DNA of 64,000 nt from Verrucomicrobiaceae bacterium (GTDB taxonomy: Bacteria; Verrucomicrobiota; Verrucomicrobiia; Verrucomicrobiales; V1-33), in contig JAIXPK010000220.1 of the NCBI GenBank assembly GCA_027486335.1, positions 5,620-69,619 of the forward strand, in the 5' to 3' direction. This document shows, piece after piece, positions 3,392 through 49,653 of the stretch. The notes beneath the pieces are model-generated. The model was not told the DNA's origin. It searched no databases and worked only from the letters and a program-made list of their open reading frames with translations. Every line of letters starts with the position of its first letter. Position 1 is the first letter of the stretch. The translations under genes were made by a program, and so were the position numbers.

Positions 3392-3438
3392 CGAGTATGA
3401 TTGGCGGCGATGGAGAGGGTGATGGATTCGAGTGCGCG

Positions 3439-14258: not shown

Positions 14259-14270
14259 GGCGCGGCGAGG

Positions 14271-15659: not shown

Positions 15660-15669
15660 GAGATTGGGG

Positions 15670-18644: not shown

Positions 18645-18666
18645 GATCGGGGGGAGGTGGTAGAGG

Positions 18667-19737: not shown

Positions 19738-19747
19738 GGCGGCGGGG

Positions 19748-21166: not shown

Positions 21167-21304
21167 GGCCGGGAGATGATGTGGGGGGGCGACGAGGGCG
21201 CGATGATGGCGGGCGGAGATGGGGGTTTCGAGACATTTTTCCGGCGGGAGGTGGGCATTGCAATTGCCGGGAGGGTCCATGTCGGCGGGTGTGGGTGCGG
21301 GGGA

Positions 21305-22033: not shown

Positions 22034-22053
22034 GGGGGTGGCTGATGATCCGG

Positions 22054-24021: not shown

Positions 24022-24040
24022 GGTGGTGCGACTGCTAGGG

Positions 24041-24520: not shown

Positions 24521-24730
24521 GGCTCATCCATTACCTGAGCTGTGGGGGCGTGGAGGTTACAAGGATTCTGGTTTTGGGGAGTGGATTGGGGTTTGGTGTG
24601 CGGGGAGGGGAGCGGTTGGCTCGGTCATGAGGCCCGGGATGGCATACTGGGGCTTTGGCTGTGGGGTCGCAGGCAGGATGCCCGTGGCACTTTGCTTGTT
24701 GCGAGTCTGATAGCAAAGGAGGCGTGTTTA
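24521..24730. repeat. ~210-bp intergenic module, copy A (contains one REP family-B hairpin)
   Basis: Aligns base-for-base at roughly 85% identity by eye with 25207-25415. Both start ggctcatccatt..gagctg.gggggcgtggaggtt and end gcaggatgcccgtg.cac.ttgcttgttgcgagtctga. Confidence 0.85.
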
Positions 24731-25206: not shown

Positions 25207-25415
25207 GGCTCATCCATTCGTTGAGCTGCGGGGGCGTGGAGGTTCAAGGGATTCTGGTTTTGGGGAGGGGATTGGGGGTTTGGTGTGCGGGGAGGGGAGC
25301 GGTGGGTTCGGTCATAATGGCCGGGCTTCCATGCTGGGGCTTGGGCTTTGGGGTCACAGGCAGGATGCCCGTGCCACCTTGCTTGTTGCGAGTCTGACGG
25401 AAAAGGAGGCTTGTT
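25207..25415. repeat. ~210-bp intergenic module, copy B
   Basis: See copy A. It starts 7 nt after the stop of the small membrane protein gene. Confidence 0.85.
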
Positions 25416-28329: not shown

Positions 28330-28485
28330 GGGAATGGGCTTTGAGGTGGAGAAGGAGGGTGAGGGTTTGTGGTATTTATAAAAATTACAGAAATTCAGAT
28401 TGAGTGCAAGTGGAAAGGGTGGGTGAAGTGGCAAGTGCCTGAGGGAAGCGACGGTGGGGGGAGGAATGATTTGGAAATCGTCCCG

Positions 28486-28658
28486 GGAATGCGGAGGGGG
28501 AGGCAAAGGAATGAGGGGGAGGGGAATGCGGGGGAGGAGAGGGAGAGGCAAGGGAATGGATGGCAGAGGAATGCGGAGGAGGAGAGGGAGAGGCAGGGGA
28601 ATGGGTGGCAGGGGAATGTGGGGGAGGAGAGGGAGAGGCAGAGGAATGTGGAGGGGGG
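28486..28658. repeat. 45-bp G-rich tandem array (3 full units plus a partial)
   Basis: The units GGAATGCGGGGGAGGAGAGGGAGAGGCAAGGGAATGGATGGCAGA (28523-28567), 28568-28612 and 28613-28657 are near identical. The same unit occurs at 40341-40430. Confidence 0.9.
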
Positions 28659-28805
28659 CGAGTCGCGGGCATGAGGTATTGCAGCGCACTGAGCGGATGG
28701 GCGCGGTGCGTGGAGGGGATGGGGTGTGGTGGGGCGCCCGGCGGCTGATGGGGCGGCGGCGGGGGCAGGTCGGCGATGCTGTTAGGGATCGCTGGGTGGG
28801 ATGGG

Positions 28806-29426
28806 TCAGCCGCGTTCTTCGAGGAGGTTGATGCTGGCGCGGAGCATTTTGCGGACGCGGAAGTTGGTGACGTGGACGGAGACTCTGGAGACCTTGAGGA
28901 CGCGGGCGACGTCTGCTGGTGGGTGGCCCTGGATGGTGGTGAGTTCGAAGATCTGGAACTGGAGTGGGGGGCAGGTACGGCGGACGCGGTCGAGGGCGGC
29001 GGCGACGATGTGCTCCTGCCATTCTGCGTCCCATGTGGCGTCGAGCTGGGCCATGGCTGGGTCTTCGAGGTTGGCGACGGCGGCGGCGTCGAGGGCGACG
29101 ACTTTGTCAGGTGGTTGTTCGCGGTAGCGGCGGCGGAGGATGTCGGCGACGCGGCGGCGGGTGATGGTTTTGAGCCATGCTTTGAAGCGGCCTTTGGAGC
29201 GATCGTATTTGAAGTCGGCCATTTCTTTGGCGACGCAGAGGATGGTGTCCTGGACGGCGTCCTGAGCTTCCTGGTCGTCGAGGCCTGATTTGCGGGCGAC
29301 GGCGTAGATGAGTTTCCAGTAGGTGTTGAAGAATTCCTGCCATGAGTCCTGATTATTCCAGTCTCGGAGCCGGCTGAGGAGACTGTGCCGGGTGGGTTGG
29401 AGGCTGGGAGGGTCGAGGGTGGTCAT
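28806..29426 (-). CDS. ECF-type sigma-70 family factor (orphan paralogue of 45330-46040)
   Basis: DSWQEFFNTYWKLIYAVARKSGL, FKAWLKTITRRRVADILRRR, QFQIFELTTIQG, and the region 4 HTH ADVARVLKVSRVSVHVTNFRVRKML. Confidence 0.85.
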   Translation of the reverse strand: MTTLDPPSLQPTRHSLLSRLRDWNNQDSWQEFFNTYWKLIYAVARKSGLDDQEAQDAVQDTILCVAKEMADFKYDRSKGRFKAWLKTITRRRVADILRRRYREQPPDKVVALDAAAVANLEDPAMAQLDATWDAEWQEHIVAAALDRVRRTCPPLQFQIFELTTIQGHPPADVARVLKVSRVSVHVTNFRVRKMLRASINLLEERG

Positions 29427-29519
29427 GGGGCGGGCTGAGCGCGCAGGTGGGTAGGGAAGTATAGGGCGCGGGAGGGGAGGAGGGCGAGTTGGAAAACGGG
29501 GAAAATGCGGTAGAAATGG

Positions 29520-31409
29520 CTAGTAGCGATGGTCGGTGCTGACGGCGCGGAAGAAGCGGGTGGGCGGGGTGCCGTTGAGCGGGGAGACGTTGATGACCTT
29601 GTCGAGGCCATCGCCGATGTAGCTGTCGGCGCGTTGCCATGAGCGGAGATCGCTGGAGATTTCGAGATCGTAGAAGGCACCTTGTTCGGTGGAGATGCGG
29701 AGTTCGAGGCCGGACGCTGATTTGGTGAGGGAGATGAAGGGGAGCGTGGCTGGAGGGAGGGCGGGCCATGCTGGTTCGGGGGAGGCACCGATGCTGGCGA
29801 TGCTAAAGGGGGAGTAGTAGGTGCCGGCTCCTCCGTAGCCGATGCCGATTGAGGCGTCCATTCCCATTGGTTGGTCGGATCCATTGCGATCGTGGTAGAT
29901 GGCCCTGCCGTAGGTGGGTGCCTGGGCCATGAAGAAGGCTGGGCGGGAAGTGAAGCCGAAGCCTTGTTTTTCGAAGGGGACATTACCGACCTTGACGCCC
30001 GGGAAGGTGTTAGTCGGTGCGGGGACGAAGAAGCTGTCGAGGGGGGTGTTGAGGTGCGGGCTGATGACCCGGACGTGGGGGCCGCCGTCTTCGCCTGCGC
30101 CGGTGACGATGTCTGCGAAGCCGTCCCGGTCGTAATCGCCGGAGGCGACCCAGACCCCGCCGCGGAAGTCAGCGCCGTAGACGGTGGTGATGAAGAGGGG
30201 CGGGCCGCCGACGTTGTTGAGGGAGCTGAGACGGCCGCTGTAGACACCGGCTTCCGGATCGCCGCCGGGGCCGAAGCCGTAGATGATGTCGTCGAAGCCG
30301 TCGCGGTCGACGTCGCCGGAGGCGACGCGGATGCCGCCGGTGAAGGTCGGGGCATGGGGGAGGAAGAAGTCGCGGAGGAGGCCTGGGGGGCTGGAGTTAG
30401 CGATGACGGGGCCGAGATCGAAGGCGCGGAGGTGGGGGCCGCCGCCGGAGCCGGGGCCGGTGATGATGTCGTCGCGGCCGTCGCCGTTGACATCGCCGAT
30501 GGCGACGTGGACACCGCCGGTGAAGTCGCCGTAGGGTTGGAACTGAGTGATCTGCTGATTGGTGACGGTGTTGACGACGACGACGAGGGATCTGACACCT
30601 TGGGCGGAGCCGAAGACGGCTTCCGGGACGCCGTCGCCGGTGACATCGCCGACGGCGGCGGAGATTCCGATGTTGCCGGGGCCGGATGCGGTGAACTGGC
30701 TACCGAGGTGAGTGCCCTCGGTGTAGGAGCCGAGGTGGAGTGTGGAGTCGGGCTGGCGGCCGGGGACGATGGAGGAAGAGCTGATGGGACGGCTGGTGAG
30801 GTGGGCAGAGTTGAGGCCGTTGAGGGAGAAGAGGAAGTAGCGGACGCCGGCGTCCTCGATTTCGCCGGTGGTGAGCCGGTGTTTGCCGGTGGCGAGGGCC
30901 TGGATGAAGACGGGGCCGTCGTCGTCGGTGACTCTGGTGGTGACGGAGGAAGTGGCGAGCGTGAGGTTTCTGGGACTGTGGAAGGTGAGTTTGGCGTGTT
31001 CAGAGTCAGGTTCCTGGAAGCCGTCGGGCTGGATGAGCCATGAGAAGGAAGCTGTGGTGACTCCGGGTGGGATTTCGATGAGGCCGGGGCGCGGGTGCGA
31101 GGGAGAGAATTCCCAGACGATGTCTTTTCCGGGGGTCAGGGGGGACTGATTGGATTCCGGGAAGCCGAAAGAGTATTCGAGGTGGCAATTGGCGGGGGCT
31201 GGTTCGGATAGGGAGATGCGGAATTCGAGGCGGGCGGGCGCGAGGGCACCGTTATCAAGGTTAGGGAAGGGGCCTTGTTCGACGACGCCTGGGTTGACGG
31301 CGGTGATGATGGCGGTGGGGGTTGCGGAGGCGAGGGCAGCGGGGAGGGAACCGAGCAGAGCGATCCGGCAGAGCGAATGGCGGGTGGAGAGGAAGGAGAG
31401 AGGAGACAT
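29520..31409 (-). CDS. Secreted FG-GAP/VCBS repeat protein
   Basis: Signal peptide. Repeated GDVNGDGRDDIITGPGSGGGPHLRAF, GDVDRDGFDDIIYG and GDYDRDGFADIVTG units. C-terminal FYDLEISSDLRSW...TRFFRAV module. Confidence 0.8.
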   Translation of the reverse strand: MSPLSFLSTRHSLCRIALLGSLPAALASATPTAIITAVNPGVVEQGPFPNLDNGALAPARLEFRISLSEPAPANCHLEYSFGFPESNQSPLTPGKDIVWEFSPSHPRPGLIEIPPGVTTASFSWLIQPDGFQEPDSEHAKLTFHSPRNLTLATSSVTTRVTDDDGPVFIQALATGKHRLTTGEIEDAGVRYFLFSLNGLNSAHLTSRPISSSSIVPGRQPDSTLHLGSYTEGTHLGSQFTASGPGNIGISAAVGDVTGDGVPEAVFGSAQGVRSLVVVVNTVTNQQITQFQPYGDFTGGVHVAIGDVNGDGRDDIITGPGSGGGPHLRAFDLGPVIANSSPPGLLRDFFLPHAPTFTGGIRVASGDVDRDGFDDIIYGFGPGGDPEAGVYSGRLSSLNNVGGPPLFITTVYGADFRGGVWVASGDYDRDGFADIVTGAGEDGGPHVRVISPHLNTPLDSFFVPAPTNTFPGVKVGNVPFEKQGFGFTSRPAFFMAQAPTYGRAIYHDRNGSDQPMGMDASIGIGYGGAGTYYSPFSIASIGASPEPAWPALPPATLPFISLTKSASGLELRISTEQGAFYDLEISSDLRSWQRADSYIGDGLDKVINVSPLNGTPPTRFFRAVSTDHRY

Positions 31410-31502
31410 CGTGATGGTTCGGCGGGTTGGGATGGGCGATTACGGGAGATTTCGAGAAATCGTGTGAGGATGGGTGGCGGATTGGGGAGAGAGCGGATGC
31501 GG

Positions 31503-34500
31503 TTATTCCATGATGACGCGGTAGAAGCGTTTGGATGCGGCGGCGTGCTGCTGGGTGAAGGCGCCGTGGCCTTGATCGAGCGGGAGCGGCGAGAGACGGG
31601 TGGCGACGTTCTGCCATGATTTGAGGTCGGAGGAGAATTGGAGCGAGTAGAAGCGACCGGGGAGGGCATCCCATGTGACGGAGGTGGCGGTGAGTTGGGG
31701 GGAAGGGACGAGCGAGATGATGCGGACGCGGCCGTGGCTGATGATCTGGATGGCGTTGATGGCGGCGCTGGTGCCGCCGACGCCGGCGCGGCCGACGATG
31801 CGGAGACGGCCGCCGGAGTGGTTTTTGAAGATGGCGACATTGCCGGCGGCACCGCTGGACTGGACGGCCACGAAGCTGCCGGATTCGCCGGCGACGTTCC
31901 AGTCGGTGATGTCGCGCAGACCAGTTAGGGATTCGGATTTCGTCAGGGACGTGACGGTGAAGTCCGAGCGGTTGTCCGGGGCGGGGCCGTCGAAGTAGAC
32001 GCAGACATCGTAGGACTGCCACGGGATGTTATAGAGGTCGGCGACGCAGCGTGTGTCGGTCGAGCAGATCATGGAACCGTGCATGAGGCGGGAGCTGCCG
32101 TCGGTTGGGAGCGGTTGGCCGGGCTGAGCGAGGGCGAGGTCGGCGGCACCGGAGTTCTGGATATTGAAGACGACCTCGTTGTAGCCCTTGGTGTAGGGGT
32201 AGCCGCCGGTGAGGTCGGGGCTGACATTGAGCCATTGCTGCTGGAGGACGATGCCGGCGTAGGTTAGGGAGGGGATTTCGAGGTCAGAGGAAACGACGCC
32301 GTCGGGGACGCGGCCTGAGAAATTGAGAGCGAAGCTGCCTGGGCCGGAGGTGGCGGGGGTGCTGGCAGCGGAGGCGGGATTGGAGCCGTTGTCGATTTCT
32401 GCGGCGTCGAGCCAGCCGTCGTTGTCGGAGTCGACGAGGGCCGGGGAGGCGACGAGGATGGAGTGACGCCATGGTTCGGCGATGAGAAGAGAACCGTTAG
32501 GCGCGACGGCGAGGGACTGGGGCGAACGGAGCGGGGTCTCGAGATGGCCGCCGGAGTAGTGGTCGTCGTAGACCCGTTGGCGTGAGAGATTGGGCTGACC
32601 GAGAACTCGGTGGGGGAGGATGCGGTCGGTGGAGCTGACGTCTTCGGCGCGGTACTGGAGGACGCGGTGGTAGCCGCTGTCGGCGACGAAGATGGAACCG
32701 TCCGGGCCGGAGGAGACGGCTTCCGGATAGTAGATGCCGCAGACATTGTGAGGGATGAGATTGGCGGATGCAGGGGAGGCCTGGCCGAGGGAGTTGGAGG
32801 CGGAGGCGTTGGCGGAAGGGAGGGAAGCGGCGTTGTCGAAGCGCTGGACCCGGTGATTGCGGGAGTCGGCGACCCAGAGACGGCCGGCGGGGTCGAGGGC
32901 GATGCTGACGGGTTCGGTGAACTGGTTAGCGGCGGTGCCCCAGTTGAAGCCGTTGAGACTGGTTTGGCCGACGACGAGGTCGGCGGATCGATCGGGGGAG
33001 GAGGCGGTGGCGCTGTTGAATTTAAGGACGCGGTGATTGAGCTGGTCGGCGACCCAGAGGTGGTTGGCGGCGTCGATGGCGACGGCGGCTGGTGTATCGA
33101 GGCCCGTGCTGCTGATGCTGGGGAATTCCGAGGAGAAGTCAGGCTGACCGAAGTGGCATCCGGCGTCGGCATCCGTGTTAGGGTCGGTACGGGTTGCGGC
33201 GTTGGCGAAGCGGAGGATGCGGTGGTGGCCGGTGTCGGCGATGAAGAGGTGGCCTGTGGGTGAGAAGGCGAGGCCGCGCGGGAGTTTCAGATTGCTGCGG
33301 GTGGCGGGGCCGGTGGCGTCGGTGCGGAGGTCGGGTTGACCGATGACCCATTCTGCGGCGATGCCCTCGCGGAGTGCCTGCCAGTTAGGGAACCGGAGGA
33401 CGCGGTGGTGTTTGCGGTCGGTGACGAAGACCTTGCCGGAGATCGGGTCGATGGCGATGGCGGCGGGGTCTTCGAGGTGTTGTTCGGAGACGAAGTTGTC
33501 GGACTGTTCGGAGAGACGGGAGATGATGGCGGGGGAACCGGTGAAGGGGGTGGCGGGAGAGGATTCGACGCGGAGGATGCGGCGGCTGTTGAGGTCGTTG
33601 ACGAAGAAGCGGCCGTCGGTGTCGGCGAGGATGCTGGCGGGCAGGATGTTCTGGAGACTCGAGGTGAAGTCGGATTGCCAGAAGACGGAGTCGGCGGGAG
33701 CGCCGTTGGAGAGGAGGGCGGAGGCGCGCCAGCGGAGGACTCGGTAGTTGTTGTAGTCGGCGAGGAGGAGATTTCCTGCGGGGTCGAAGGAGAGTGCACC
33801 GCTGTTGCCGATGAGCTGGGCGGTGAGGCCGCCGCCTTTGGTGAGGAGGTCTGGTGCGCCGAGGACGCCGCTGGCAGGGGCGTTGTCAGGGAGAGTGCGG
33901 GCGTTGTCGAAACGGAGGATGCGGGCGTTGTGTTCGTCCATGATCCAGAGCGTGCTGCCGTGAGCGGCGATGGTGCGGGCGAAGAATTTGTTGGGGGAAG
34001 CGAGGGTCGAGCCGTCGTCGGTGACGAGGTCCGGCTGACCGAGGACGCCGTCGGCGGACGGCATGTTGCCGCGGAATCTAGCGCTATCGAAGCGGATGAC
34101 GCGCGAGCCTTGAGAGAGCCAGAGCGATCCGGCGGTGTCGACGGCGAGCCCGAAGGCCCAGCCGGTGGTGGCGGTTAGTGGTGGGTAGGGAGAGTGGTAG
34201 TCGAGCGTGCCCTTGGCGAAGTCCGGGTATCCGAGGACCTGGGCGGCGGGGGTGCCGCTAGCGGCGTTGGCGGCGTCGTTGAAGCGAACGGCGCGGCGCG
34301 TTTTGAATTCAGCGACCCAGAGTGAGCCGTGGTCCCATGCGAGGGCGGCGGGGCCGCGGAGTGTGGTGGAGACGATGGAGTCCTGGCGGAGGGTTTCGGA
34401 GACGGAGCGCTGACCGAAGACGGCTTCAGGCTCGCCGTTTTCGGCAAGTTTCTGAGCGGAGCTGTAGCGGAGGACGCGGTCGCCGTTCCAGTCAGCGACG

Positions 34501-34709
34501 AAGAGTTTGCCGGTGGCGGGGTCGACGGCCATGGCGCTGGGGGAGACGAAGCGCGGGTTGTCGGTGTGGCCGAATCGGGCGGAGAAGACCTGACCGTCCT
34601 GAAATTCCGAGATGGCGGAGAGCTGGGTGCAGGTGGCGAGGAAGCAGAGGACGAGCGGCAGCCGGAGCGGGCTGGCGGGATGGATGACGGACGGGCGCGG
34701 AGGAGTCAT
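31503..34709 (-). CDS. Secreted NHL-repeat beta-propeller protein (1,068 aa)
   Basis: Signal peptide. More than 15 repeats of the type ..D..NHRVLRF.. (NHRVLKF, NHRVQRF, YHRVLQY, NYRVLRW). C-terminal FYSLQFSSDLKSW...KRFYRV module. Confidence 0.8.
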   Translation of the reverse strand: MTPPRPSVIHPASPLRLPLVLCFLATCTQLSAISEFQDGQVFSARFGHTDNPRFVSPSAMAVDPATGKLFVADWNGDRVLRYSSAQKLAENGEPEAVFGQRSVSETLRQDSIVSTTLRGPAALAWDHGSLWVAEFKTRRAVRFNDAANAASGTPAAQVLGYPDFAKGTLDYHSPYPPLTATTGWAFGLAVDTAGSLWLSQGSRVIRFDSARFRGNMPSADGVLGQPDLVTDDGSTLASPNKFFARTIAAHGSTLWIMDEHNARILRFDNARTLPDNAPASGVLGAPDLLTKGGGLTAQLIGNSGALSFDPAGNLLLADYNNYRVLRWRASALLSNGAPADSVFWQSDFTSSLQNILPASILADTDGRFFVNDLNSRRILRVESSPATPFTGSPAIISRLSEQSDNFVSEQHLEDPAAIAIDPISGKVFVTDRKHHRVLRFPNWQALREGIAAEWVIGQPDLRTDATGPATRSNLKLPRGLAFSPTGHLFIADTGHHRILRFANAATRTDPNTDADAGCHFGQPDFSSEFPSISSTGLDTPAAVAIDAANHLWVADQLNHRVLKFNSATASSPDRSADLVVGQTSLNGFNWGTAANQFTEPVSIALDPAGRLWVADSRNHRVQRFDNAASLPSANASASNSLGQASPASANLIPHNVCGIYYPEAVSSGPDGSIFVADSGYHRVLQYRAEDVSSTDRILPHRVLGQPNLSRQRVYDDHYSGGHLETPLRSPQSLAVAPNGSLLIAEPWRHSILVASPALVDSDNDGWLDAAEIDNGSNPASAASTPATSGPGSFALNFSGRVPDGVVSSDLEIPSLTYAGIVLQQQWLNVSPDLTGGYPYTKGYNEVVFNIQNSGAADLALAQPGQPLPTDGSSRLMHGSMICSTDTRCVADLYNIPWQSYDVCVYFDGPAPDNRSDFTVTSLTKSESLTGLRDITDWNVAGESGSFVAVQSSGAAGNVAIFKNHSGGRLRIVGRAGVGGTSAAINAIQIISHGRVRIISLVPSPQLTATSVTWDALPGRFYSLQFSSDLKSWQNVATRLSPLPLDQGHGAFTQQHAAASKRFYRVIME

Positions 34710-34915
34710 AGGTCCCTCTGTTCGGCGGCGGGGAGCGGCCGATTACGGGAACCTTGAGGAATTTTTTTAGGGGGGAGGGGTGAGGCGGCCTCCGGTGGGA
34801 GGTCAGGTTCTGAAATAGTTTCGGGGAGGAGGCGAAGCCGCTGGGGCGCAGGCTGCTGCGTGCCATCCTTGCCGATCCATGTGAGGTCAAGTCTGGTTTC
34901 CCCGGAACGAAGGCG

Positions 34916-35659
34916 TTAGTAGTTCTTGAAAGCAGAGACACAAGCCGACCAGACGGCGGGATGGTTTTGGCGGAGGGAGGACATGGGGGATTCGTTGACT
35001 CCAGCTCCTCGGAAGCACCAGCCGAGGATGCCGTGTTCGTCGGCGTCCTTGAGATCACTGATGAAAGCGGCGGCGTGCCCTGCGGGATCATCGAGGATGG
35101 TCTGGATGATTTTGCTGATGCGCCGGAAGCTGCGTCGATAGCCGAGGGTGACGGCGTCGCGTTTTGCAAACTGGAACACGCGGGCCGTTTCGGAACCTTT
35201 GATCGAGGTGCTTCCTTTCGAATCCATGCGGGCGAAGAGGATTCCGGTGGCGGGGCTGAAATCCAGGAAATCCCACGGATCATCCACGGTGGGGTCGAGG
35301 AGTGCGGGGTTTCCGTTTACTAACGGGAACTGGCTGCCTTTGCAGTCACGGCCGCAGCCCGTGCAGCAAAGCAGCAAATTGGGCCATCGGAACATCTGCT
35401 CTGGATAGACAGACTTAGGCCAGAAGTGCTCAATGTCCGTGCCAGCGGAGTCCGAGCAATACATGCAACGCTGTCTGCCGCCTGCCATTTGCTGAAGCTG
35501 ACGCTTCACCATCGCGAGCTTATCGGTCTGGCGAGCGTTCTTCCAAGTCTTCTCGATATTGAGCGTCCCGGCTGCCATGTCGGCATCGGCCCGCTTCTGC
35601 CTTTCCTCCATGTAGCGGACAACGACAGGAGGCAGGTCATGTCTGGGGACGCGGCGCAT
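34916..35659 (-). CDS. ptuB: HNH endonuclease, Septu PtuB-like
   Basis: CMYCSDSAGTDIEHFWPKSVYPEQMFRWPNLLLCCTGCGRDCKG is an HNH/zinc-finger core. 247 aa. It starts 3 nt after the stop of the ATPase gene. The DNA is visibly lower in GC than its neighbours. Confidence 0.75.
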   Translation of the reverse strand: MRRVPRHDLPPVVVRYMEERQKRADADMAAGTLNIEKTWKNARQTDKLAMVKRQLQQMAGGRQRCMYCSDSAGTDIEHFWPKSVYPEQMFRWPNLLLCCTGCGRDCKGSQFPLVNGNPALLDPTVDDPWDFLDFSPATGILFARMDSKGSTSIKGSETARVFQFAKRDAVTLGYRRSFRRISKIIQTILDDPAGHAAAFISDLKDADEHGILGWCFRGAGVNESPMSSLRQNHPAVWSACVSAFKNY

Positions 35660-35662
35660 CGA

Positions 35663-36964
35663 TTACAGGTCTTCGTCAACGTTAACGAACAGTTCGAGCT
35701 GTTTGAACCGTTTCTGTTCTTCTGCGGTCAGTTTGCCTGTGGATCGTTTCTTCCCCTCGATGAGTGCATACTCAATGCGGGCCTCTACGGCGACCGGCGA
35801 GAGAGTGCTCTGAAGCCCAAACGCCGGGCTGCGCAGAATGGCGTCCGGGCGTGAGGCGATGATGGAATCGCGCACATCATCGGTGAGACGGCGTGGCTCT
35901 TGCCCGCTGCCCGGCTCGGGCAGGACGAATAAACCGCCAGGGTCCGCGGCCTGGCAAATGATGGGGCTGTGCGTGGTGACGAGGAATTGGATCTTCGGGA
36001 AATGGCGTTTCAGCCAAAAACCGATGTCACGCTGCCACTCGGGATGAAGATGGGCGTCGATTTCGTCGATCAGGATCACTCCCGAGTGAGCGATCTCGAT
36101 ATTGCCGTCGAGCGTTGTCGTGAGCAGGTTTTCGTGACCGTAAGCATTGATCAGATGGCGAAGGATATCGGCCACCAGCGCCAGTGCGGAGCGATATCCG
36201 TCACTCATGGAGGCCCATGAGATTTCCACCCCATTACGATCCTTCAGCCAAAGGCCATCCGAATCTACTCGGTCTACTGTGATCTGGTTGGGCAGGAGGT
36301 CCTGCCGCAGCAGGCTGAGGAGGATGGCAAGTTGGCTGACTTCGGCTGCCTTTTTCTCAAGTTTCTTATGGTCCAGCTCCCTCAACCAGCGGTCCACTTC
36401 GGCGAGAGATGCGGCCTCCTCGAACATGGTGACAAATCGTTCTGTGCTAGGAGAAGACATGAGTCGCTGTGCTACGGGCGACTCACCGAAAACTCGCCGG
36501 AATGGTCCATAGCCGCAGCAAAACCATCCGCTGGATCCGTTGGCCCAAATAGTGCGTTCAGGTGTTTGGTAGGATTTTTGCCGTCCTTCTGGCAACTCGA
36601 CCGTGAGTGAGGTTTCCTTTCCGCCGTTTTCAAAAACCAGGTGGGCAGGGAATTTTTCGGACGGGCTTTTGCCGACGCCGCTGAGTTTGTCATCCGGCTT
36701 CACACGAACGATTTCGAGTTCTACATGACCTTTCTTTTGGGGGGCGTCATGCCGGACCCACTTGTTGAAGCTTGGTTGCAGCGAACGGGCTGTATCGCGG
36801 CCGGTAAGCCCGATGGCGATGGATTTCAAAAGCGTGCTTTTGCCTGAACCATTGTCACCCGTGAAGACCGTCCAGCCTGCATAACTTTTGTCCGGGCGTT
36901 GAAGATCAAAATCCAGGCTTTTGAAGCCGCGAATGTTGGTGAGCTTGATCTTATGAAGATACAT
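35663..36964 (-). CDS. ptuA: ABC/SMC-like AAA ATPase, Septu PtuA-like
   Basis: Start trimmed to MYLHKIKLTNIRGFKSLDF. Walker A GDNGSGKST; signature-like SMSDGYRS; Walker B VILIDEIDAHLHP; H-loop TTHSP. 433 aa. Confidence 0.75.
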   Translation of the reverse strand: MYLHKIKLTNIRGFKSLDFDLQRPDKSYAGWTVFTGDNGSGKSTLLKSIAIGLTGRDTARSLQPSFNKWVRHDAPQKKGHVELEIVRVKPDDKLSGVGKSPSEKFPAHLVFENGGKETSLTVELPEGRQKSYQTPERTIWANGSSGWFCCGYGPFRRVFGESPVAQRLMSSPSTERFVTMFEEAASLAEVDRWLRELDHKKLEKKAAEVSQLAILLSLLRQDLLPNQITVDRVDSDGLWLKDRNGVEISWASMSDGYRSALALVADILRHLINAYGHENLLTTTLDGNIEIAHSGVILIDEIDAHLHPEWQRDIGFWLKRHFPKIQFLVTTHSPIICQAADPGGLFVLPEPGSGQEPRRLTDDVRDSIIASRPDAILRSPAFGLQSTLSPVAVEARIEYALIEGKKRSTGKLTAEEQKRFKQLELFVNVDEDL

Positions 36965-37304
36965 GGGTGACGAATGGTGAACGGGAATCAGACCTGACTC
37001 CAGCGGAGAGTGATGTGTGGCTGGGTGGGGCCGGATTGCTGCAGGTTCCAATCAATGGTCCCAAAGCAGCCTTGGAACTGCTGATTGATGACGGCGTTGG
37101 CGACGAAGAGCGGGGGGGCTGGGCGTTTTGGTGGTGTCCGAGGCACGGCGTTTCGGCGGTTGGGGAGCGACGGAATTGGCCTGATGGTCTGTGATTGACA
37201 TGGGGTGGGGGAACTGGGCCGTGGGTGCGAGGAGATTGGGGAGAGGGTTGGGTGTTTTGAGCGGTTGTGCAAAGGGTGAATGGGGCTGGGGTGGGAGGTT
37301 GGGG

Positions 37305-40280
37305 TCAGGGGGAGGGCCAGTCGAGGTGTAGGGTGGCGAGGTGGGAGCGGAGGAGGGGGAGGTCCCAGATGCGGGCGAGGTGATTGGTTTCGGTGACGAG
37401 GAGGCGAGTGCTGTCGGGGCTGAAGGCGAGGGTGCCGATGACGGTGCCGAGGTGGTGTTCGACGCGTGCGATGGTGGTGCCGTCTGCTGGGTTGAGGAGG
37501 AGGAAGGAGGTGGAGGAGTCCTGGGCGGCGATGAGCGAGCCGTCCGGGGAGCAGGCGGCGACCATGCCGCGTGCTTTGTGGGAGGAGGACCATGAGGTTG
37601 CGGAGGGGACGAGGGGTTCGCAGCGGATGCCTGAGGAGGAGCTGATGATGAGGCTGCGGGAATCGGCGGAGAAGGCGACGATGGAAGTGCCTGCGCCTGT
37701 CCAGTTAGCGGCGGGGCGGAGGGGATCCGGGGCGTTGAGGTCGAAGACGAGGAGTCGGGTGCCTCGGGTGGCGAGCCAGCGGCCGTCGGGGCTGAGGAAG
37801 AGCATGCGGAATTGTTCCGGAGCTGGCATGACAGGGGCGAAGTTGCCGAGGTTGCGGCGGAGGTGGATGGTGCCTTTGGTCATGGCGGCGACGGTGAGGC
37901 CGTCGGCGCTGGCGGCGACGCTCCATGTGTCGCCGGGGATGAGGAGGGAAGGGGGATCGAACTGGAGGGAGCCGTCCGGGTTGCGATGGACGTTGTGCTG
38001 GAAGAGCCCCTCGATGGTGGCGGTGTAGAGCGGGCCGGATTCTGTGGCCATGGCTGTGTGGCGGACGGAGGCGGAGGGGAGGAGGTGTGTGGGGAGGAGA
38101 GAGATGGCGTCATTGATATGGACCCCGGAGTTGCCGGTACTGAGGAGGAGACGGCCGTCGGCGGCGAAAGTGGCGATGCTGGAGAGATCGGATAGGGGCA
38201 GGCGCCATGGGCGGCAGACATCGCGGCCGGCCCATTCAGCTTCGATGAGGTCGTAGGTGGTGCCGTCGGAGTAGGCGATGCGGTGATTGTTGGTGAAGCG
38301 GATGCTGCCGGTGACGAACGCTGGGTGGAGGCCGAGGAGCGTGCGGTCGGCGACGCCGTAGAGCTGGAGCGTTCCGTCCCAGCCGCTAGTGAAGAGGACC
38401 TCGTCGGCGGGGTCGAATTCGAGGGTGGTGATGATACCGTGGCGGCCGAGGGAGTCTGGCTGGGGAGGATTGGGGACGAGGTTGTGGACCGAGACGGTGC
38501 CGTTGGCGCCGACGGCGGCGGTGCGGGCGTCGTGGGAGAGGCCGAAGGAGCACGAGGAGTCGAACGGGGGCATGGCGAGTTCGACGGAATGGGAGAGGAG
38601 ATTGACGAGGTAGGCTGGGCCGTTGTGGCGGGAGCCGACGAGGATGCGGTCGGAGGCGACGGCGGAGAGGATATCGCGCGGGGAGGGGAGGGGGATGGAG
38701 ACAGGGGCGCTGCCGTCGAGTGGAAAGATGCGAATGGCTTTGTCGACGAGCATGATGAGTTCCGGGCGGGCCTGGTTGAAGCGGACCATGTCGAGGGCTT
38801 CGGCGGCGACGGGTGCGGGGATGTGCAGCTGGACTGAGCCGGAGTCGGTTTCCCAGACGATGCAGTCGCCGCGGCGCTGCGGGCTCATGCTGACGAGGAA
38901 GCGGCCGTCCGGTGAGAAATCGAGCCATTCGCTGATGGGGGAAGGGCCCTTGATGGTTAGATCGGTGCCGGGGCCGTGGGTGGGGCGGATGCGGATGGTG
39001 CCGTCGGGCTGGACGCTGGCGTAGCGGTCGATGCTAGGGTTGATGGCCTGGCGGAGGGGAGAGCCGTCCGGGGATTTGGAGGCGGGCCAGCGGGAGACTT
39101 CGCGGAAGTCCGGGATGGCGAGGGCGGTGATGGCCTGACTGCGGAGGGCGACGTCGCCTGGGTGGATGAGAGCGGCATCGCGGAGGGCGTCGAGGGCGCG
39201 GAAGCGACGGCCGGTTTGAGAGGAGAGGCATTCGGCGCGGGCGAGGGCGGCGGACTGGCCGAAGAGACGCTCGCGGGCTTCCTGTTCTGCGGTTTCGGTG
39301 CGGAGGAGGAGGGTTTCGGTGTGCTGGCGAGCGGAGCGTTCGGCATTGGCGCGCCAGACGGCGATGGTGCCGATGGCGGCGGCGAGGACGGCGGCGAGGA
39401 CGGCGGCGAGGCCGCCGCGTCTGGCGAAGCGGAGACGGTCGGCGGAGCGGTGGGCGTCGCGGACTGAGCGACCGCTTTGCATGGTGGCGAGGTCGGCGAG
39501 CATTTCTGCGCCGGACTGGTAGCGGTTGGTGGCGTCCGGGGCGCAGGCTTTCATGGCGACGGCGTTGAGGTCCATGATGCCGGAGAGGGCGGCGAGGCCG
39601 TCGGGGCCGGAGGCTGGAAGGGAGGGGAAGCGCATGCGGTCCATGCCGGTGGCGGCTTCGTAGAGGGATTTGCCGAGACTGAAGAGGTCGGCTTGTGGGC
39701 TGTTAGGGCCTTCCGGGGGAATGTAGCCTTCGGTGCCGACGAAGCTGCGGCTTTCGCTCATTTCTGCGACGAGGCCGATGTCAGCGAGTTTGGCGACGCC
39801 GTCGACGAGGATGATATTGGAGGGTTTGACGTCGCGGTGGATGAGACCGAGACGGTGCATGTGGCCGAGGGTGGCGGCGAGAGTTAGGAAGAAGTTGACG
39901 CAGCTGGAGGTTTCGATGCGGCCGAGGGAGTCGATTTCCGAGCGGAGCGTGCGTGGGCGGTAGGAGTCGGGAGAGCCGGAGGCGTTGTCGGCGAGTTCCA
40001 TGACGTAGTAGAAGAAGCCTGCGTCGTCGTTGCGGCCGACCTGGAGGATGTCGACGAGGCCTTCGTGGCTGCGGGAGACAGGTTCGAAGCGTTTGATGCC
40101 GCTGAATTCGCGTTCGTAGGGACGGACGCTGTCGAATTTGTCGCGCCAGACGACCTTGACGGCGCGCATGGTGCCGAGGGTGCTGCGGGCGCGCCAGACC
40201 TGGCCGTAGGAGCCTTCGCCGATGATGGCGAGCATTTCGTGGTCGGGGACCGGGGGTGGAGGGGCGGCGGGCGGTTTCAA
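37305..40280 (-). CDS. Ser/Thr protein kinase with TM segment and C-terminal WD40-like beta-propeller region
   Basis: IGEGSYGQVWRA, HRDVKPSNIIL, DIGLVA. TM segment GLAAVLAAVLAAAIGTIAVW. About 650 aa of propeller-like repeats (FSPDGRFL, LSPDGRWLAT, FSPDSTRLLVT). TTG start at 40280; an ATG follows 15 codons in. Confidence 0.85.
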   Translation of the reverse strand: MKPPAAPPPPVPDHEMLAIIGEGSYGQVWRARSTLGTMRAVKVVWRDKFDSVRPYEREFSGIKRFEPVSRSHEGLVDILQVGRNDDAGFFYYVMELADNASGSPDSYRPRTLRSEIDSLGRIETSSCVNFFLTLAATLGHMHRLGLIHRDVKPSNIILVDGVAKLADIGLVAEMSESRSFVGTEGYIPPEGPNSPQADLFSLGKSLYEAATGMDRMRFPSLPASGPDGLAALSGIMDLNAVAMKACAPDATNRYQSGAEMLADLATMQSGRSVRDAHRSADRLRFARRGGLAAVLAAVLAAAIGTIAVWRANAERSARQHTETLLLRTETAEQEARERLFGQSAALARAECLSSQTGRRFRALDALRDAALIHPGDVALRSQAITALAIPDFREVSRWPASKSPDGSPLRQAINPSIDRYASVQPDGTIRIRPTHGPGTDLTIKGPSPISEWLDFSPDGRFLVSMSPQRRGDCIVWETDSGSVQLHIPAPVAAEALDMVRFNQARPELIMLVDKAIRIFPLDGSAPVSIPLPSPRDILSAVASDRILVGSRHNGPAYLVNLLSHSVELAMPPFDSSCSFGLSHDARTAAVGANGTVSVHNLVPNPPQPDSLGRHGIITTLEFDPADEVLFTSGWDGTLQLYGVADRTLLGLHPAFVTGSIRFTNNHRIAYSDGTTYDLIEAEWAGRDVCRPWRLPLSDLSSIATFAADGRLLLSTGNSGVHINDAISLLPTHLLPSASVRHTAMATESGPLYTATIEGLFQHNVHRNPDGSLQFDPPSLLIPGDTWSVAASADGLTVAAMTKGTIHLRRNLGNFAPVMPAPEQFRMLFLSPDGRWLATRGTRLLVFDLNAPDPLRPAANWTGAGTSIVAFSADSRSLIISSSSGIRCEPLVPSATSWSSSHKARGMVAACSPDGSLIAAQDSSTSFLLLNPADGTTIARVEHHLGTVIGTLAFSPDSTRLLVTETNHLARIWDLPLLRSHLATLHLDWPSP

Positions 40281-40340
40281 TGAGGGATGGTTAGCTTGAA
40301 GATGGGGGCGGGGACAAGCTTTGAGTGCGGGGTGGGGCGG

Positions 40341-40430
40341 GGAATGCGGGTGGGGAGAGGGGGAGGCAGGGGAATGGATGGCAGGGGAATGCGGGTGGGG
40401 AGAGAGGGAGGGGCAGGGGAATGGATGGGG
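40341..40430. repeat. 45-bp G-rich tandem array (2 units), same family and orientation as 28486-28658
   Basis: GGAATGCGGGTGGGGAGAGGGGGAGGCAGGGGAATGGATGGCAGG (40341-40385) and 40386-40430. Confidence 0.9.
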
Positions 40431-40491
40431 TGGGGGGTGAATGCGGTAAAGAGAGCGCTTGAGTGGGGTGAGGAGGGGTGGTCAGATTTCA

Positions 40492-41406
40492 ATGATGAAG
40501 ACCATGATTCGCCGAGCTGTTTTTCTGATGGTTGCTGTGAGCGCTGTGATGCCTGCGGTGCGGGCAGCGGAGCCGAAGCGGATTGTGTTTATTGCGGGGC
40601 GGCCGAGTCATCCGCCGGGGATGCATGAATTCCGGGCGGGGTCGCTGCTGCTGGAGAAGTGTCTGAAGGGAGTGCCGGGGGTGGTGTTTGACCGGCATGA
40701 CCAGGGATGGGTGAAGGATGAAGCGGTGCTGGAGAAGGCGGATGCGGTGATTATTTATGCGGATGGTGGTGGGGGGCATCCGGCGCTGCAGGGGGATCAT
40801 CTGGAGAAGATGAAAGCGTTAGCGGCGAAGGGGTGCGGGATTGGGTTCATGCATTACGGCGTGGAGGTGCCTGCGGAGCGGGGAGGGCCGGCGTTCAAGG
40901 ATTTTGTGGGTGGGTATTACGAGCATCAGTTTTCGTGCAATCCGATCTGGGAGCCCGAGTTCAAGGCGTTCCCGGAGCATCCGGTGACGCGTGGGGTGCA
41001 GCCGTTTCAGATCAAGGATGAGTGGTATTTCAACATGCGGTTTGCGGGGGATTTCGGAGCGGACGGGGCTGGGGAGAAGGACGGGGTGAAGTTCACGCCG
41101 TTGCTGGTGGCGAAGCCGACGGACAAGGTTCGGAAGGGGCCGTATGTGTATCCTGCGGGGCCGTATCCACACATTCAGGCGGCGAGTGGGCGGAGCGAGG
41201 CGATGATGTGGGCGGTGGAGCGGAAGGATGGCGGGCGTGGGTTCGGGTTCACGGGCGGGCATTTTCACCTGAACTGGGGGAATGCGGATTTCCGGCGGGT
41301 GATTCTGAATGCGCTGGTGTGGGTGGCGAAGGCGGAGGTGCCTGCGGGGGGAGTGGATTCGCGGGTGGCGGAGGAGGATCTGAAGGCGAATCTGGACAAG
41401 AAGTGA
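40492..41406 (+). CDS. Secreted ThuA-like domain protein
   Basis: Signal peptide MMKTMIRRAVFLMVAVSAVMPAVRA. KRIVFIAGRPSHPPGMHEF and ADAVIIYADGGGGHP resemble ThuA-type (class-I amidotransferase-like fold) proteins. The assignment is by recollection. Confidence 0.55.
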   Translation: MMKTMIRRAVFLMVAVSAVMPAVRAAEPKRIVFIAGRPSHPPGMHEFRAGSLLLEKCLKGVPGVVFDRHDQGWVKDEAVLEKADAVIIYADGGGGHPALQGDHLEKMKALAAKGCGIGFMHYGVEVPAERGGPAFKDFVGGYYEHQFSCNPIWEPEFKAFPEHPVTRGVQPFQIKDEWYFNMRFAGDFGADGAGEKDGVKFTPLLVAKPTDKVRKGPYVYPAGPYPHIQAASGRSEAMMWAVERKDGGRGFGFTGGHFHLNWGNADFRRVILNALVWVAKAEVPAGGVDSRVAEEDLKANLDKK

Positions 41407-45349: not shown

Positions 45350-46040
45350 GTTCCGCGATCTCTTTCTTGATGAGGCCCCCGACGCGGTGTTTGGCGAGGT
45401 AGACCTGAGCCATGCTGACGCCGAGTTCGGTCATGACTTTTTTGACGGACCAGCCCTTGATGACGTAGGCGTCGAAGATCTGGAACTGGCGGGGGGAGAC
45501 TCGTTGTTTGACGGTGGCGACGGCGCGGTCGGCGAGATTCTGTTTCCACTCGAGGTCCCAGATGCCGTCGAGTTTCTGGGCTTTTGGGTCGGCGAAGCGG
45601 TCGAGGGTGGACGTTTTGCGGTCGTCCTCGTCCGGGAATTTCTGCATGGCGGTGTCCTTGGCGCGTTTGCGGAATTGGTCGCCGATGCGCCAGCGGGTCA
45701 TGTTCATGAGCCAGACCTTGAAGGAACCGGCTTTGGGGTCGTAGCGGTGTTCGCGGCTTTGTTTGGCGATGGCGAGGATGGTTTCCTGGACGACGTCGAG
45801 GGCTTCTTCGGGGCGGAGACCGCTTTTGAGGCCGACGCCGTAGATGAGGCGCCAGTAGGTGCGGTAGAACTCGTCCCATGAGCGTTGGTCCTCCCAGTTG
45901 CCGAGTCGTTCGATGAGACTCTTGCGAGTCTTCTCGTAGTGGGAGCGCACGACTTCTTCCGCTGGTTCAACCACCTGTTCAGGGGGGGCTGGATCGGCGG
46001 CGGGAGGGGGATCGTCCGCGATGTCTTTCCGACGGGCCAT
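45330..46040 (-). CDS. ECF-type sigma-70 family factor (kinase-coupled)
   Basis: RSWDEFYRTYWRLIYGVGLKSGL, FKVWLMNMTRWRIGDQFRKR, QFQIFDAYVIKG, and the region 4 HTH KKVMTELGVSMAQVYLAKHRV. Confidence 0.85.
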   Translation of the reverse strand: MARRKDIADDPPPAADPAPPEQVVEPAEEVVRSHYEKTRKSLIERLGNWEDQRSWDEFYRTYWRLIYGVGLKSGLRPEEALDVVQETILAIAKQSREHRYDPKAGSFKVWLMNMTRWRIGDQFRKRAKDTAMQKFPDEDDRKTSTLDRFADPKAQKLDGIWDLEWKQNLADRAVATVKQRVSPRQFQIFDAYVIKGWSVKKVMTELGVSMAQVYLAKHRVGGLIKKEIAELEKQLI

Positions 46041-47751: not shown

Positions 47752-47803
47752 GAGTGAGCGCGGAAAACGGACAAGCAGTGAGGACCGCAGAAGCAGGAAC
47801 CAG

Positions 47804-49600: not shown

Positions 49601-49653
49601 CTTAATTGCCGAAGAAGCACTTTCAACAACCGGAATAGCCAACCCACCAAGCC

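What the first reader, a model, noticed from the sequence alone, without database searches (positions are those of the whole stretch)
28486..40430. Direct 45-bp repeat arrays bracket an 11.9-kb segment whose two ends are an orphan ECF sigma and an orphan kinase
The same 45-bp G-rich unit, in the same orientation, occurs in two places. One is just downstream of sigma gene 28806-29426 (array 28486-28658). The other is just upstream of kinase gene 37305-40280 (array 40341-40430). That sigma is a clear paralogue of the kinase-coupled sigma at 45330-46040 (shared W.EF...YW.LIY.V..KSGL and QFQIF). That kinase is a clear paralogue of the sigma-coupled kinase 42656-45349. Their shared N-terminus is PDHE.L..IG.GSYG.VW.ARS..G..RAVKVV.R..F...R..EREF.GI..FEP.SR.H.GLV.IL.VGRNDD.GF.YYVMEL.D. 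Joining the two arrays (circularising the segment) would place sigma directly upstream of the kinase, which is the canonical order. The present layout therefore looks like a circular permutation of a sigma-kinase unit. It could have arisen by recombination at the repeat, or by tandem duplication plus deletion, with FG-GAP, NHL and the Septu-like genes carried in between.
Basis: inference. Interest (0 to 1): 0.55.

Follow-up and report, generated by a model that had tools for sequence, protein, structure and literature searches.

The report
Rewired sigma–kinase module; repeats incidental
The two repeat arrays are real but are ordinary, variable copies of a G-rich repeat scattered through this bacterial lineage; what they flank is a sigma factor and its partner kinase that were once adjacent and are now reordered around two probable target genes, and the repeats did not cause that reordering.

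Summary
Two same-orientation arrays of a 45-nt G-rich unit (28486-28658 and 40341-40430) flank kinase K1, Septu, NHL, FG-GAP and sigma-1.

Supported: sigma-1 and K1 are cognate former neighbours.
- Their nearest outgroup relatives form an adjacent sigma-then-kinase pair (L139).
- In one relative (L128), a fragment specific to the K1 orthogroup sits directly behind the sigma-1 orthologue.

Not supported: the repeats as the cause.
- A sister lineage (L137 and L138, 87-94% nucleotide identity) has the same K1-NHL-FG-GAP-sigma-1-zincin order. It has neither array and no Septu.
- The repeat is a dispersed family, on at least 6 contigs of the closest MAG and in at least 3 species genomes.
- Copy number varies between close relatives.
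- The orientation follows local GC skew in 14 of 14 loci.
- Array 2 resembles an unlinked array more than it resembles array 1.

New inference: a promoter-like motif (GTAA-N18-CGAAC, 7-10 nt before the ATG) precedes sigma-1 homologues elsewhere. In this window it occurs only in front of NHL and FG-GAP. This suggests a kinase-to-sigma module that drives two secreted beta-propeller proteins.

The K1/NHL spacer is a defence hotspot: Septu here, HEC-01 in the closest MAG, and empty in the sister lineage.

The parts
28486..28658 (+). Array 1. About 3.4 units of the 45-nt G-rich minisatellite (G-rich on the + strand). It is intergenic, between the sigma-1 stop and the zincin start.
   Evidence: Conserved at the same site in the D1 MAG. 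Absent in L138.
40341..40430 (+). Array 2. About 2 units of the same family, lying in the divergent K1/ThuA intergenic region.
   Evidence: There are 3 units in the D1 MAG. Absent in L137.
28806..29426 (-). Sigma-1, an ECF-type sigma factor of 206 aa. No anti-sigma or kinase gene is adjacent. Its own promoter motif is missing.
   Evidence: Pfam Sigma70_r2 and Sigma70_r4_2, and TIGR02937. Upstream region examined.
29520..31409 (-). FG-GAP repeat protein of 629 aa with a signal-peptide-like N-terminus. Full-length relatives were found only in this narrow clade.
31417..31443 (-). Predicted ECF-type promoter GTAATCGCCCATCCCAACCCGCCGAAC, ending 7 nt before the FG-GAP ATG.
31503..34709 (-). NHL-repeat beta-propeller protein of 1068 aa with a signal-peptide-like N-terminus.
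34720..34746 (-). Predicted ECF-type promoter GTAATCGGCCGCTCCCCGCCGCCGAAC, ending 10 nt before the NHL ATG.
   Evidence: Conserved in L123 and L137.
34781..37294 (-). Inserted Septu cassette: PtuB 34916-35659 and PtuA 35663-37051. It has lower GC (0.54-0.60) and near-zero GC skew.
   Evidence: PADLOC PtuA 5e-159 and PtuB 4e-38. Composition. Absent in L137. Replaced by HEC-01A/B in the D1 MAG.
37305..40280 (-). K1, a Hanks-type Ser/Thr kinase. Domains in order: kinase domain, one hydrophobic segment (~aa 287-309), WD40 beta-propeller.
25519..28329 (-). DUF5117/DUF4953 Met-zincin gene downstream of array 1. It is a neighbour, not shown to belong to the module.
40459..41406 (+). ThuA-like gene, divergent from K1. 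It is a neighbour.
42656..46040 (-). Canonical paralogous pair used for comparison: sigma-2 (45330-46040) overlapping kinase K2 (42656-45349; PEGA and FGE-sulfatase domains).

Best explanation
Two separate things coincide here.

(1) The arrays. They are two members of a dispersed, copy-number-variable G-rich minisatellite family (45-nt unit built of three 15-mers). The family sits in intergenic DNA across Verrucomicrobiales genomes. Its G-rich strand always lies on the locally G-rich DNA strand. The arrays expand, contract, appear or disappear between close relatives. They are not rearrangement joints.

(2) The genes between them. They form a rewired ECF-sigma / Ser-Thr-kinase signalling module.
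- Sigma-1 and K1 descend from one adjacent sigma-then-kinase pair.
- In this clade the order is K1, NHL, FG-GAP, sigma-1.
- Sigma-1 has lost the promoter motif GTAA-N17/18-CGAAC, which precedes its homologues elsewhere 7-10 nt before the ATG.
- The same motif now stands in front of NHL and FG-GAP.

Inferred mechanism:
- The membrane kinase K1 senses a signal through its WD40 domain and activates sigma-1 by phosphorylation. This is by analogy with EcfP/PknT and EcfK/PknS.
- Sigma-1 RNA polymerase then transcribes the two secreted beta-propeller genes.
- Sigma-1 is also transcribed, by read-through from the FG-GAP promoter, so it remains autoregulated.
- K1 has become uncoupled from that autoregulation.

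The Septu cassette is a recent insertion into a defence hotspot in the K1/NHL spacer.

Shown: repeat anatomy and distribution, presence/absence polymorphism, cognate ancestry, motif positions.
Inferred: promoter function, phosphorylation, read-through, and how the reordering happened.
For: Repeat family:
By my count of the record titles, about 53 are Verrucomicrobiota.
- In the closest genome (D1_MAG_00053, 95% nucleotide identity) the scan hit 6 contigs. Five of them lie outside the window's region.
- The full 45-nt unit (up to 9 substitutions) occurs in loci of 3 species genomes.
- Array 2 has 2 units in the window, 3 in the D1 MAG and 0 in L137. Array 1 is present in the window and D1 MAG and absent in L138.
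- Array orientation equals the flank GC skew in 14 of 14 loci.
- Array 2 is 92% identical to the unlinked D1 array in L022, against 88% to array 1.

Cognate pair:
- L127 and L139 are canonical sigma-then-kinase pairs.
- The L139 sigma is 96.7% identical to P0005.
- The L128 fragment hits only K1 and P0121-P0124.
- In that region the K1 orthogroup is 46-51% identical to K1, against 25-27% for outgroup kinases.
- Mirror-tree correlation is r = 0.93 among 8 pairs. One pair is overlapping in the window, one was verified as adjacent (L127), and six rest on contig-length coincidence.

Promoter motif:
- It is present upstream of sigma in L128, L130 and L139.
- It is also upstream of neighbouring genes in L121 and L139, and just after the K1 orthologue in L125.
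- In the 64-kb window there are only two matches, at NHL and FG-GAP (0.19 expected). This holds even when one mismatch is allowed.

Septu and the hotspot.

Phosphorylation precedent: PMC8999054 and PMC7826278.
Against: - L128 is a single 1-kb metagenome contig. A chimeric assembly cannot be excluded.
- L137 and L138 come from two different sequencing runs. I assume they represent one lineage.
- Loss of both arrays in that lineage is as parsimonious as gain in the window/D1 lineage. The arrays could therefore still be older than the split.
- The number of arrays in the source genome itself is unknown. With only the at least 7 arrays seen in the D1 MAG, two arrays within 12 kb would be somewhat unexpected (about 0.1 pairs expected for an assumed ~5-Mb genome).
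- The promoter motif is a pattern inference without transcript data.
- Sigma-1 keeps an acidic EAQD stretch where ECF43 sigmas lack DAED. An EcfP-like phospho-switch is therefore not demonstrated.
- No terminator or promoter scan informs operon structure.
Confidence: 0.7

Rival explanations
1. First reader's model. Homologous recombination between the two direct arrays (excision as a circle and reintegration, or unequal exchange) permuted a sigma-kinase unit. The arrays are the scars or substrates of that event.
For: - The arrays are homologous, in direct orientation, and flank exactly the sigma and kinase ends.
- Sigma-1 and K1 are indeed former partners.
- Logan contig L001 (11769 bp) begins and ends inside the two arrays.
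Against: - The same gene order exists without either array in L137 and L138.
- K1 orthologues at 63-67% identity are already sigma-less and array-free.
- The family is dispersed.
- Orientation is dictated by GC skew.
- The two arrays are not each other's closest relatives.
- No recombinase is encoded in the segment.
- The L128 junction lies at the sigma stop codon and K1 codon ~391, not at an array.
Confidence: 0.05
2. The reordering arose by tandem duplication of a sigma-1, K1, NHL, FG-GAP block, followed by loss of the first sigma and the last K1-NHL-FG-GAP. The repeats played no part.
For: - All genes keep one orientation.
- L128 shows a 5'-truncated, frameshifted K1 copy directly behind sigma-1. 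Partial deletion of a distal copy would look like this.
- In L125 a motif-driven gene follows the K1 orthologue. A K1-then-targets arrangement may therefore be old.
Against: - No duplicated intermediate was seen.
- In L128 sigma-1 carries its own promoter motif and shows no detectable FG-GAP spacer upstream. It looks like a decaying ancestral locus rather than a duplication junction.
- FG-GAP has full-length relatives only in this narrow clade.
Confidence: 0.3
3. The arrays are functional cis-elements acting on the flanking promoters of K1, ThuA and zincin. Examples would be protein-binding sites or G-quadruplex / i-motif forming upstream sequences. Under this reading they are part of the module's regulation.
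For: - The GGCAGG-GGAATG core is conserved across species at unrelated loci.
- 7 of 12 independent arrays lie 16-160 nt upstream of a gene start on the C-rich strand.
- The B/C part of the array 2 unit contains four closely spaced runs of 3-4 G.
Against: - The arrays are dispensable, being absent in a sister lineage with the same genes.
- Copy number varies.
- Other arrays abut 3' ends of genes.
- There is no Rfam match.
Confidence: 0.15
4. Sigma-1 and K1 were never adjacent. L128 is a chimeric contig, and the proximity of the two genes in the window is coincidental among many paralogous sigma and kinase genes.
For: - L128 is short and carries frameshifts.
- The window alone holds three kinases and two to three sigma-like genes.
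- The closest sigma-1 homologues checked (53-59% identity: P0004, P0008, P0009) lack a downstream kinase.
Against: - Independent co-phylogeny evidence exists: the nearest outgroups of both genes are one adjacent pair.
- The sigma-type promoter motif accompanies K1 orthologues in L124 and L125 and in the window.
Confidence: 0.08

Closest known systems
Ser/Thr-kinase-regulated ECF sigma factors. Characterised examples are EcfP/PknT of Vibrio parahaemolyticus and EcfK/PknS of Xanthomonas citri (group ECF43). Kinase-associated groups ECF59-62, ECF217, ECF267 and ECF283 are common in Planctomycetes.
   Same: - An ECF sigma without an anti-sigma gene.
- A cognate Hanks-type transmembrane kinase.
- Relatives show the canonical adjacent sigma-then-kinase order (L127, L139, and sigma-2/K2 in the window).
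- Family-level co-evolution of sigma and kinase (PMC7826278, PMC8999054).
   Different: - Here the pair is split and reversed (kinase first, sigma last), with two putative target genes and a defence cassette in between.
- Sigma-1 keeps an acidic EAQD stretch where ECF43 has STTA-like residues.
- ECF group assignment was not made.
- Phosphorylation is untested.
Bacterial minisatellites / VNTR loci, such as the mycobacterial MIRU-type dispersed tandem repeats (from my own knowledge).
   Same: - Units of 40-100 nt repeated head to tail.
- Intergenic location.
- Many loci per genome.
- Copy number differs between close strains.
   Different: - The unit is extremely G-rich with a 15-nt sub-period.
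- Orientation is locked to the G-rich strand of a genome with very strong GC skew.
- The same unit is shared by several species-level genomes.
- No described family was found (Rfam; literature).
Septu (PtuA/PtuB) anti-phage system in a defence hotspot.
   Same: An ATPase PtuA and an HNH nuclease PtuB lie in tandem. The cassette has atypical composition and occupies a site that holds a different system (HEC-01) or nothing in close relatives.
   Different: The NCBIfam PtuA and PtuB hits are below the equivalog cut-offs, so this is a divergent member. No activity was tested.
Direct-repeat-flanked excisable segments, such as composite elements or repeat-mediated amplification and excision.
   Same: Two homologous direct repeats flank an ~11.8-kb gene block.
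   Different: - No recombinase or transposase is present.
- The block is present without the repeats in a sister lineage.
- The repeats are not specific to the block boundaries.

Membership tests
ECF (group IV) sigma-70 factors | [quoted passage not shown] | tested here: met
   Sigma70_r2 (5e-12), Sigma70_r4_2, and TIGR02937 at 71.8 bits against a cut-off of 42.9.
Kinase-associated ECF groups (ECF43, 59-62, 217, 267, 283) | A Ser/Thr kinase gene conserved next to the sigma gene | tested here: inconclusive
   Not adjacent in the window: the neighbours are FG-GAP and zincin, and K1 lies 7.9 kb upstream. Adjacent in outgroup relatives (L127, L139), and as a remnant in L128.
Kinase-associated ECF groups | No anti-sigma factor gene in the neighbourhood | tested here: met
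   None of the Pfam or NCBIfam matches for the cluster genes 25.5-41.4 kb is an anti-sigma domain.
ECF43 specifically (EcfP type) | Absence of the acidic DAED motif in sigma-2.2, replaced by the phospho-acceptor Ser/Thr | tested here: not met
   By eye, sigma-1 reads DDQEAQDAVQDT and sigma-2 reads PEEALDVVQET at the corresponding place. Acidic residues are retained. Criterion taken from PMC8999054.
Kinase-associated ECF groups | Assignment by the published group HMMs | not testable with these tools
   No ECF-group HMM library was available.
Hanks-type Ser/Thr protein kinases | Pkinase fold with the catalytic HRDxKxxN loop | tested here: met
   Pkinase 4.5e-25. The sequence shows LIHRDVKPSNI and a DIG (DFG-like) motif.
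Septu defence system | PtuA ATPase adjacent to PtuB HNH nuclease | tested here: met
   PADLOC PtuA 5e-159 and PtuB 4e-38. The NCBIfam equivalogs are below cut-off.
Repeat-bounded mobile or excisable element | Encodes or adjoins a recombinase, integrase or transposase | tested here: not met
   No such domain in any gene from 25.5 to 41.4 kb.
Repeat-bounded mobile or excisable element | The bounded segment is present or absent as a unit, and the repeats are specific to its ends | tested here: not met
   The segment is present without the repeats in L137 and L138. The repeats are present at many unlinked loci.
Dispersed minisatellite / VNTR family | Head-to-tail units, several loci per genome, copy-number polymorphism between close relatives | tested here: met
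CRISPR array | Constant repeats separated by unique spacers | tested here: not met
   The units abut without spacers, with a 15/45-nt period.

The most novel reading that the evidence does not exclude
The 45-nt G-rich unit may be a self-propagating minisatellite. Well-formed multi-unit arrays appear at sites that, in a sister lineage, hold only a 15-nt GGAATGCGG-like seed. This happened at both sites on the same branch. It suggests copying templated from other arrays (ectopic conversion or template switching on the G-rich strand) rather than local slippage. That would be a transposase-free way of spreading repeats in genomes with extreme GC skew.
Probability: 0.15. Interest if true: 0.6.

Novelty: new variant of a known kind. 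Interest (0 to 1): 0.35.

Why it matters
Kinase-regulated ECF sigma factors are abundant in Planctomycetes and Verrucomicrobia but almost uncharacterised there. Pairing is normally inferred from adjacency.
- This locus shows that a cognate pair can be split and reordered while apparently staying wired. So-called orphan sigmas and kinases in these phyla may therefore still be partners.
- It provides a concrete, testable promoter motif and a two-gene candidate regulon.
- It is a caution against reading bracketing direct repeats as rearrangement scars in genomes that carry dispersed, strand-locked minisatellites.
- It documents a small defence hotspot with three states: Septu, HEC-01 and empty.

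Tried and rejected
- Rfam: nothing at the arrays. The only window hit is a tmRNA.
- Sigma-70 promoter and terminator scans around the arrays and across 28-41 kb were uninformative.
- I looked for a kinase remnant in the sigma-1/zincin spacer. Only proline-rich low-complexity matches turned up.
- The first promoter patterns (GTAAAC... and TGTAA...) were too specific and found nothing. The relaxed GTAA-N17/18-CGAAC worked.
- The metagenome scan with sigma-1 returned only 9 loci, mostly short.
- Several informative contigs had no retrievable DNA (P0004 and P0008).
- The sigma-1/K1 mirror profile (r = 0.56, n = 8) lacks power.
- Considered from the sequence and rejected: sigma-54 (GG-N9-GC, one base short) and ECF -35/-10 readings of the array.
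- CRISPR was rejected because there are no spacers.
- A coding repeat was rejected. The ORF running through array 1 is an over-extension of the zincin gene.
- A literature search for a described verrucomicrobial repeat or GC-skew phenomenon found nothing relevant.

Full report
**1. Observation**

Tandem Repeats Finder reports two period-45 arrays. One is at 28494-28648 (3.4 copies, 87% matches) and the other at 40339-40428 (2.0 copies, 93%).

The repeat finder places them in one direct-repeat family, 80% identical over 90 nt ungapped and 11773 nt apart. A local alignment gives 88% over 88 nt.

A 17-nt core pattern occurs 10 times in the window, only inside the arrays, against 0.8 expected.

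The unit is three 15-mers: GGAATGgatGGCAGG, GGAATGcggGtGGGG and AGAGGGAGAGGCAGG.

Both arrays are intergenic.
- The long ORF 25519-29034 that crosses array 1 is an over-extension of a DUF5117/DUF4953 Met-zincin gene. Its real start is about 28329.
- Array 2 lies between the start of K1 (40280, minus strand) and a divergent ThuA-like gene.

- ECF sigma-1, 28806-29426
- FG-GAP, 29520-31409
- NHL, 31503-34709
- PtuB/PtuA (Septu), 34916-37051
- K1, a Ser/Thr kinase with WD40 domain, 37305-40280

Sigma-1 is 39% identical to sigma-2. The K1 and K2 kinase domains are 50% identical.

**2. Source and relatives**

The window is 95% identical over 28213-34774 to contig JAIXVE010000127.1 of Verrucomicrobiaceae MAG D1_MAG_00053.

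That contig (L123) has this layout: K2 (partial), p329, ThuA, divergent K1, HEC-01A/B, NHL, FG-GAP, sigma-1, array 1, zincin. Array 2 is also present, with three units instead of two.

Two Logan contigs at 87-94% nucleotide identity represent a sister lineage.
- L137 reads ThuA, divergent K1, then NHL. It has no array 2, and no cassette between K1 and NHL.
- L138 reads NHL, FG-GAP, sigma-1 (98.5% aa), zincin. It has no array 1.
- In both cases only a 15-nt GGAATGCGG-like seed remains at the site.

Logan contigs of the window's own lineage break at the arrays. The unbroken L137 and L138 contigs therefore argue that the arrays are really absent there.

**3. The repeat family**

- By my count of the record titles, about 53 blocks come from Verrucomicrobiota and about 12 from Planctomycetota.
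- The D1 MAG has hits on 6 contigs, 5 of which do not match the window.

The full 45-nt unit (up to 9 substitutions) is found in loci from three species-level genomes: D1_MAG_00053, RE-27jun17-61 and V1-33.

All inspected arrays are intergenic. Several lie 16-160 nt upstream of a gene start, and others lie at 3' ends of genes.

In 14 of 14 verrucomicrobial loci the G-rich strand of the array is the G-rich strand of the flanks, with skew 0.16-0.50. The window itself has GC skew of about +0.35 to +0.45 across 3-47 kb. Two arrays in one skew domain are therefore expected to be in direct orientation.

Array 2 is more similar to the unlinked D1 array in L022 (92%) than to array 1 (88%).

There is no Rfam match.

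Conclusion: this is a dispersed, polymorphic minisatellite family. Gain in the window/D1 branch and loss in the L137/L138 branch are equally parsimonious.

**4. Were sigma-1 and K1 partners?**

Family level:
- Seven sigma-1 homologues (46-52% identity) share contig length and source with STK-WD40 homologues of K1.
- L127 confirms adjacent sigma-then-kinase.
- Pairwise distances of sigma and kinase domains correlate at r = 0.93 among eight pairs. One pair overlaps in the window, one was verified as adjacent, and six rest on contig coincidence.
- Both sigma-1 and K1 are closer to this WD40 clade than to sigma-2/K2.

Nearest outgroups:
- K1's orthogroup is P0121-P0124 (63-97% identity).
- The next kinases are P0125 and P0126 (39-40%).
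- P0126 starts at the stop codon of a sigma (L139). That sigma is 96.7% identical to P0005, a member of sigma-1's nearest outgroup clade (56% to sigma-1).

Direct adjacency:
- In JGI contig L128 the sigma-1 orthologue is 84% identical at the amino-acid level and 79% at the nucleotide level.
- It is followed immediately by a frameshifted stretch homologous to K1 aa ~391-506 (68% nucleotide identity to window 38779-39029, E 1e-17).
- Among 122 kinases this stretch hits only K1 and P0121-P0124.
- In this region true orthologues are 46-51% identical to K1 and outgroup kinases 25-27%. The L128 fragment is 41-51% identical.

The two genes are therefore cognate, and the ancestral order was sigma then kinase.

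The split is probably older than the arrays.
- K1 orthologues at 63-67% identity (L124, L125) have no sigma upstream and no array.
- The closest sigma-1 homologues (53-59%) are followed by a convergent gene or a TSP3-repeat protein.
- L130 holds a sigma-1 pseudogene.

**5. A promoter-like motif and a functional reading (inference)**

The motif GTAA-N17/18-CGAAC lies immediately upstream of sigma in L128, L130 and L139, 7-10 nt before the ATG.
- It also precedes neighbouring genes in L139 and L121.
- It follows the K1 orthologue in L125 and lies divergent from it in L124.

In the 64-kb window it occurs exactly twice (0.19 expected). This holds even with one mismatch allowed and an ATG required downstream.
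- One site is 31417-31443, before FG-GAP.
- The other is 34720-34746, before NHL.
- The extended sequence TCCCGTAATCG...CCGCCGAAC is shared by both.

The motif is missing upstream of sigma-1 itself. NHL and FG-GAP both have signal-peptide-like N-termini.

My reading:
- K1 activates sigma-1. Phosphorylation is the precedent mechanism for kinase-linked ECF sigmas (PMC7826278, PMC8999054).
- Sigma-1 then drives NHL and FG-GAP-sigma-1.
- Sigma-1 retains acidic residues (EAQD) where ECF43 lacks DAED, so it is not an EcfP-type member.

**6. The Septu cassette**

Window 34781-37294 is absent from L137 and has GC 0.54-0.60 with almost no skew. It encodes PtuA (PADLOC 5e-159) and PtuB (4e-38). The D1 MAG carries HEC-01A/B at the same spot. 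The insertion leaves the NHL motif intact.

**7. Verdict**

- Its inference that sigma-1 and K1 are displaced partners is correct.
- Its proposed cause, recombination at the repeats, is not supported.
- How the reordering occurred is unresolved. Tandem duplication plus deletion or relocation of sigma-1 both remain possible.

Interest is moderate. The locus is a variant architecture of a known signalling module with a testable motif. A previously undescribed but probably mundane repeat family sits alongside it.

Noticed in passing
window 11230-11342 and 11454-11811: A tmRNA gene (Rfam RF00023, 166 bits) is preceded about 110 nt upstream by a perfect-ish 57-nt x 2 purine-rich tandem repeat (GAAAGTGAGAAGTGG...). 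This is a different G-rich intergenic repeat.
   Followed up: no
window 3298-3354, 24651-24707, 25338-25394, 63661-63764; also 24572-24728 / 25259-25415: A dispersed element of about 50 nt contains the hairpin GTCACAGGCAGGATGCCCGTGCCAC (REP-like). Two 157-nt copies are 84% identical, 687 nt apart. A related AGILPA-coding sequence ends contig L121.
   Followed up: no
window 3000-47000 versus 48000-61000: There is an extreme GC skew of +0.35 to +0.45 where nearly all genes are on the minus strand, so coding strands are C-rich. It drops to about +0.03 to +0.15 (-0.04 to +0.15) where genes are on the plus strand. Related verrucomicrobial loci show the same magnitude.
   Followed up: partly
window 34781-37294; L123 7645-9413; L137 3572-3586: The K1/NHL spacer is a three-state defence hotspot. 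It holds Septu (PtuA/PtuB) in the window, HEC-01A/B (AAA_21 plus DUF4276) in the D1 MAG, and is empty in L137.
   Followed up: yes
window 21305-24141 (minus strand): A third Ser/Thr kinase (22054-24141, Pkinase 8e-51) is followed by a 302-aa protein with a weak ECF-sigma / region-4 match (21305-22213). This is a kinase-then-sigma-like order in the same window.
   Followed up: partly
window 46906-61500: A block of plus-strand genes has lower GC and little skew. It includes a 2773-aa ORF with no Pfam match and a protein with a Peptidase_S74 (endosialidase chaperone) domain. It may be an acquired island or phage-tail-like region.
   Followed up: no
window 12903-21280: A cluster of at least four paralogous sulfatase genes accounts for many of the direct-repeat families D6-D9, D14, D16 and D20.
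   Followed up: partly
L008 37-383 (minus) and 3268-3622 (plus), Pirellulaceae MAG M30B19: Two long arrays (~20 units each) of a related 14/15-mer GGAATGRGGGACAGA lie in inverted orientation and flank ~2.9 kb. Both start with GGAGGTGRGATAGGGACAGA on the inner side.
   Followed up: no
L130 3376-3624: A sigma-1-like pseudogene (80% identity over aa 1-83, with an in-frame stop) keeps the GTAAAC-N16-CGAAC motif. It is followed by a strong hairpin, in an unrelated gene context.
   Followed up: partly
window 31417-31443, 34720-34746; L128 40-66; L139 491-516, 3016-3041: The predicted -10-like CGAAC lies only 7-10 nt from the ATG in all cases. Transcripts from this promoter type would be leaderless or nearly so.
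   Followed up: partly
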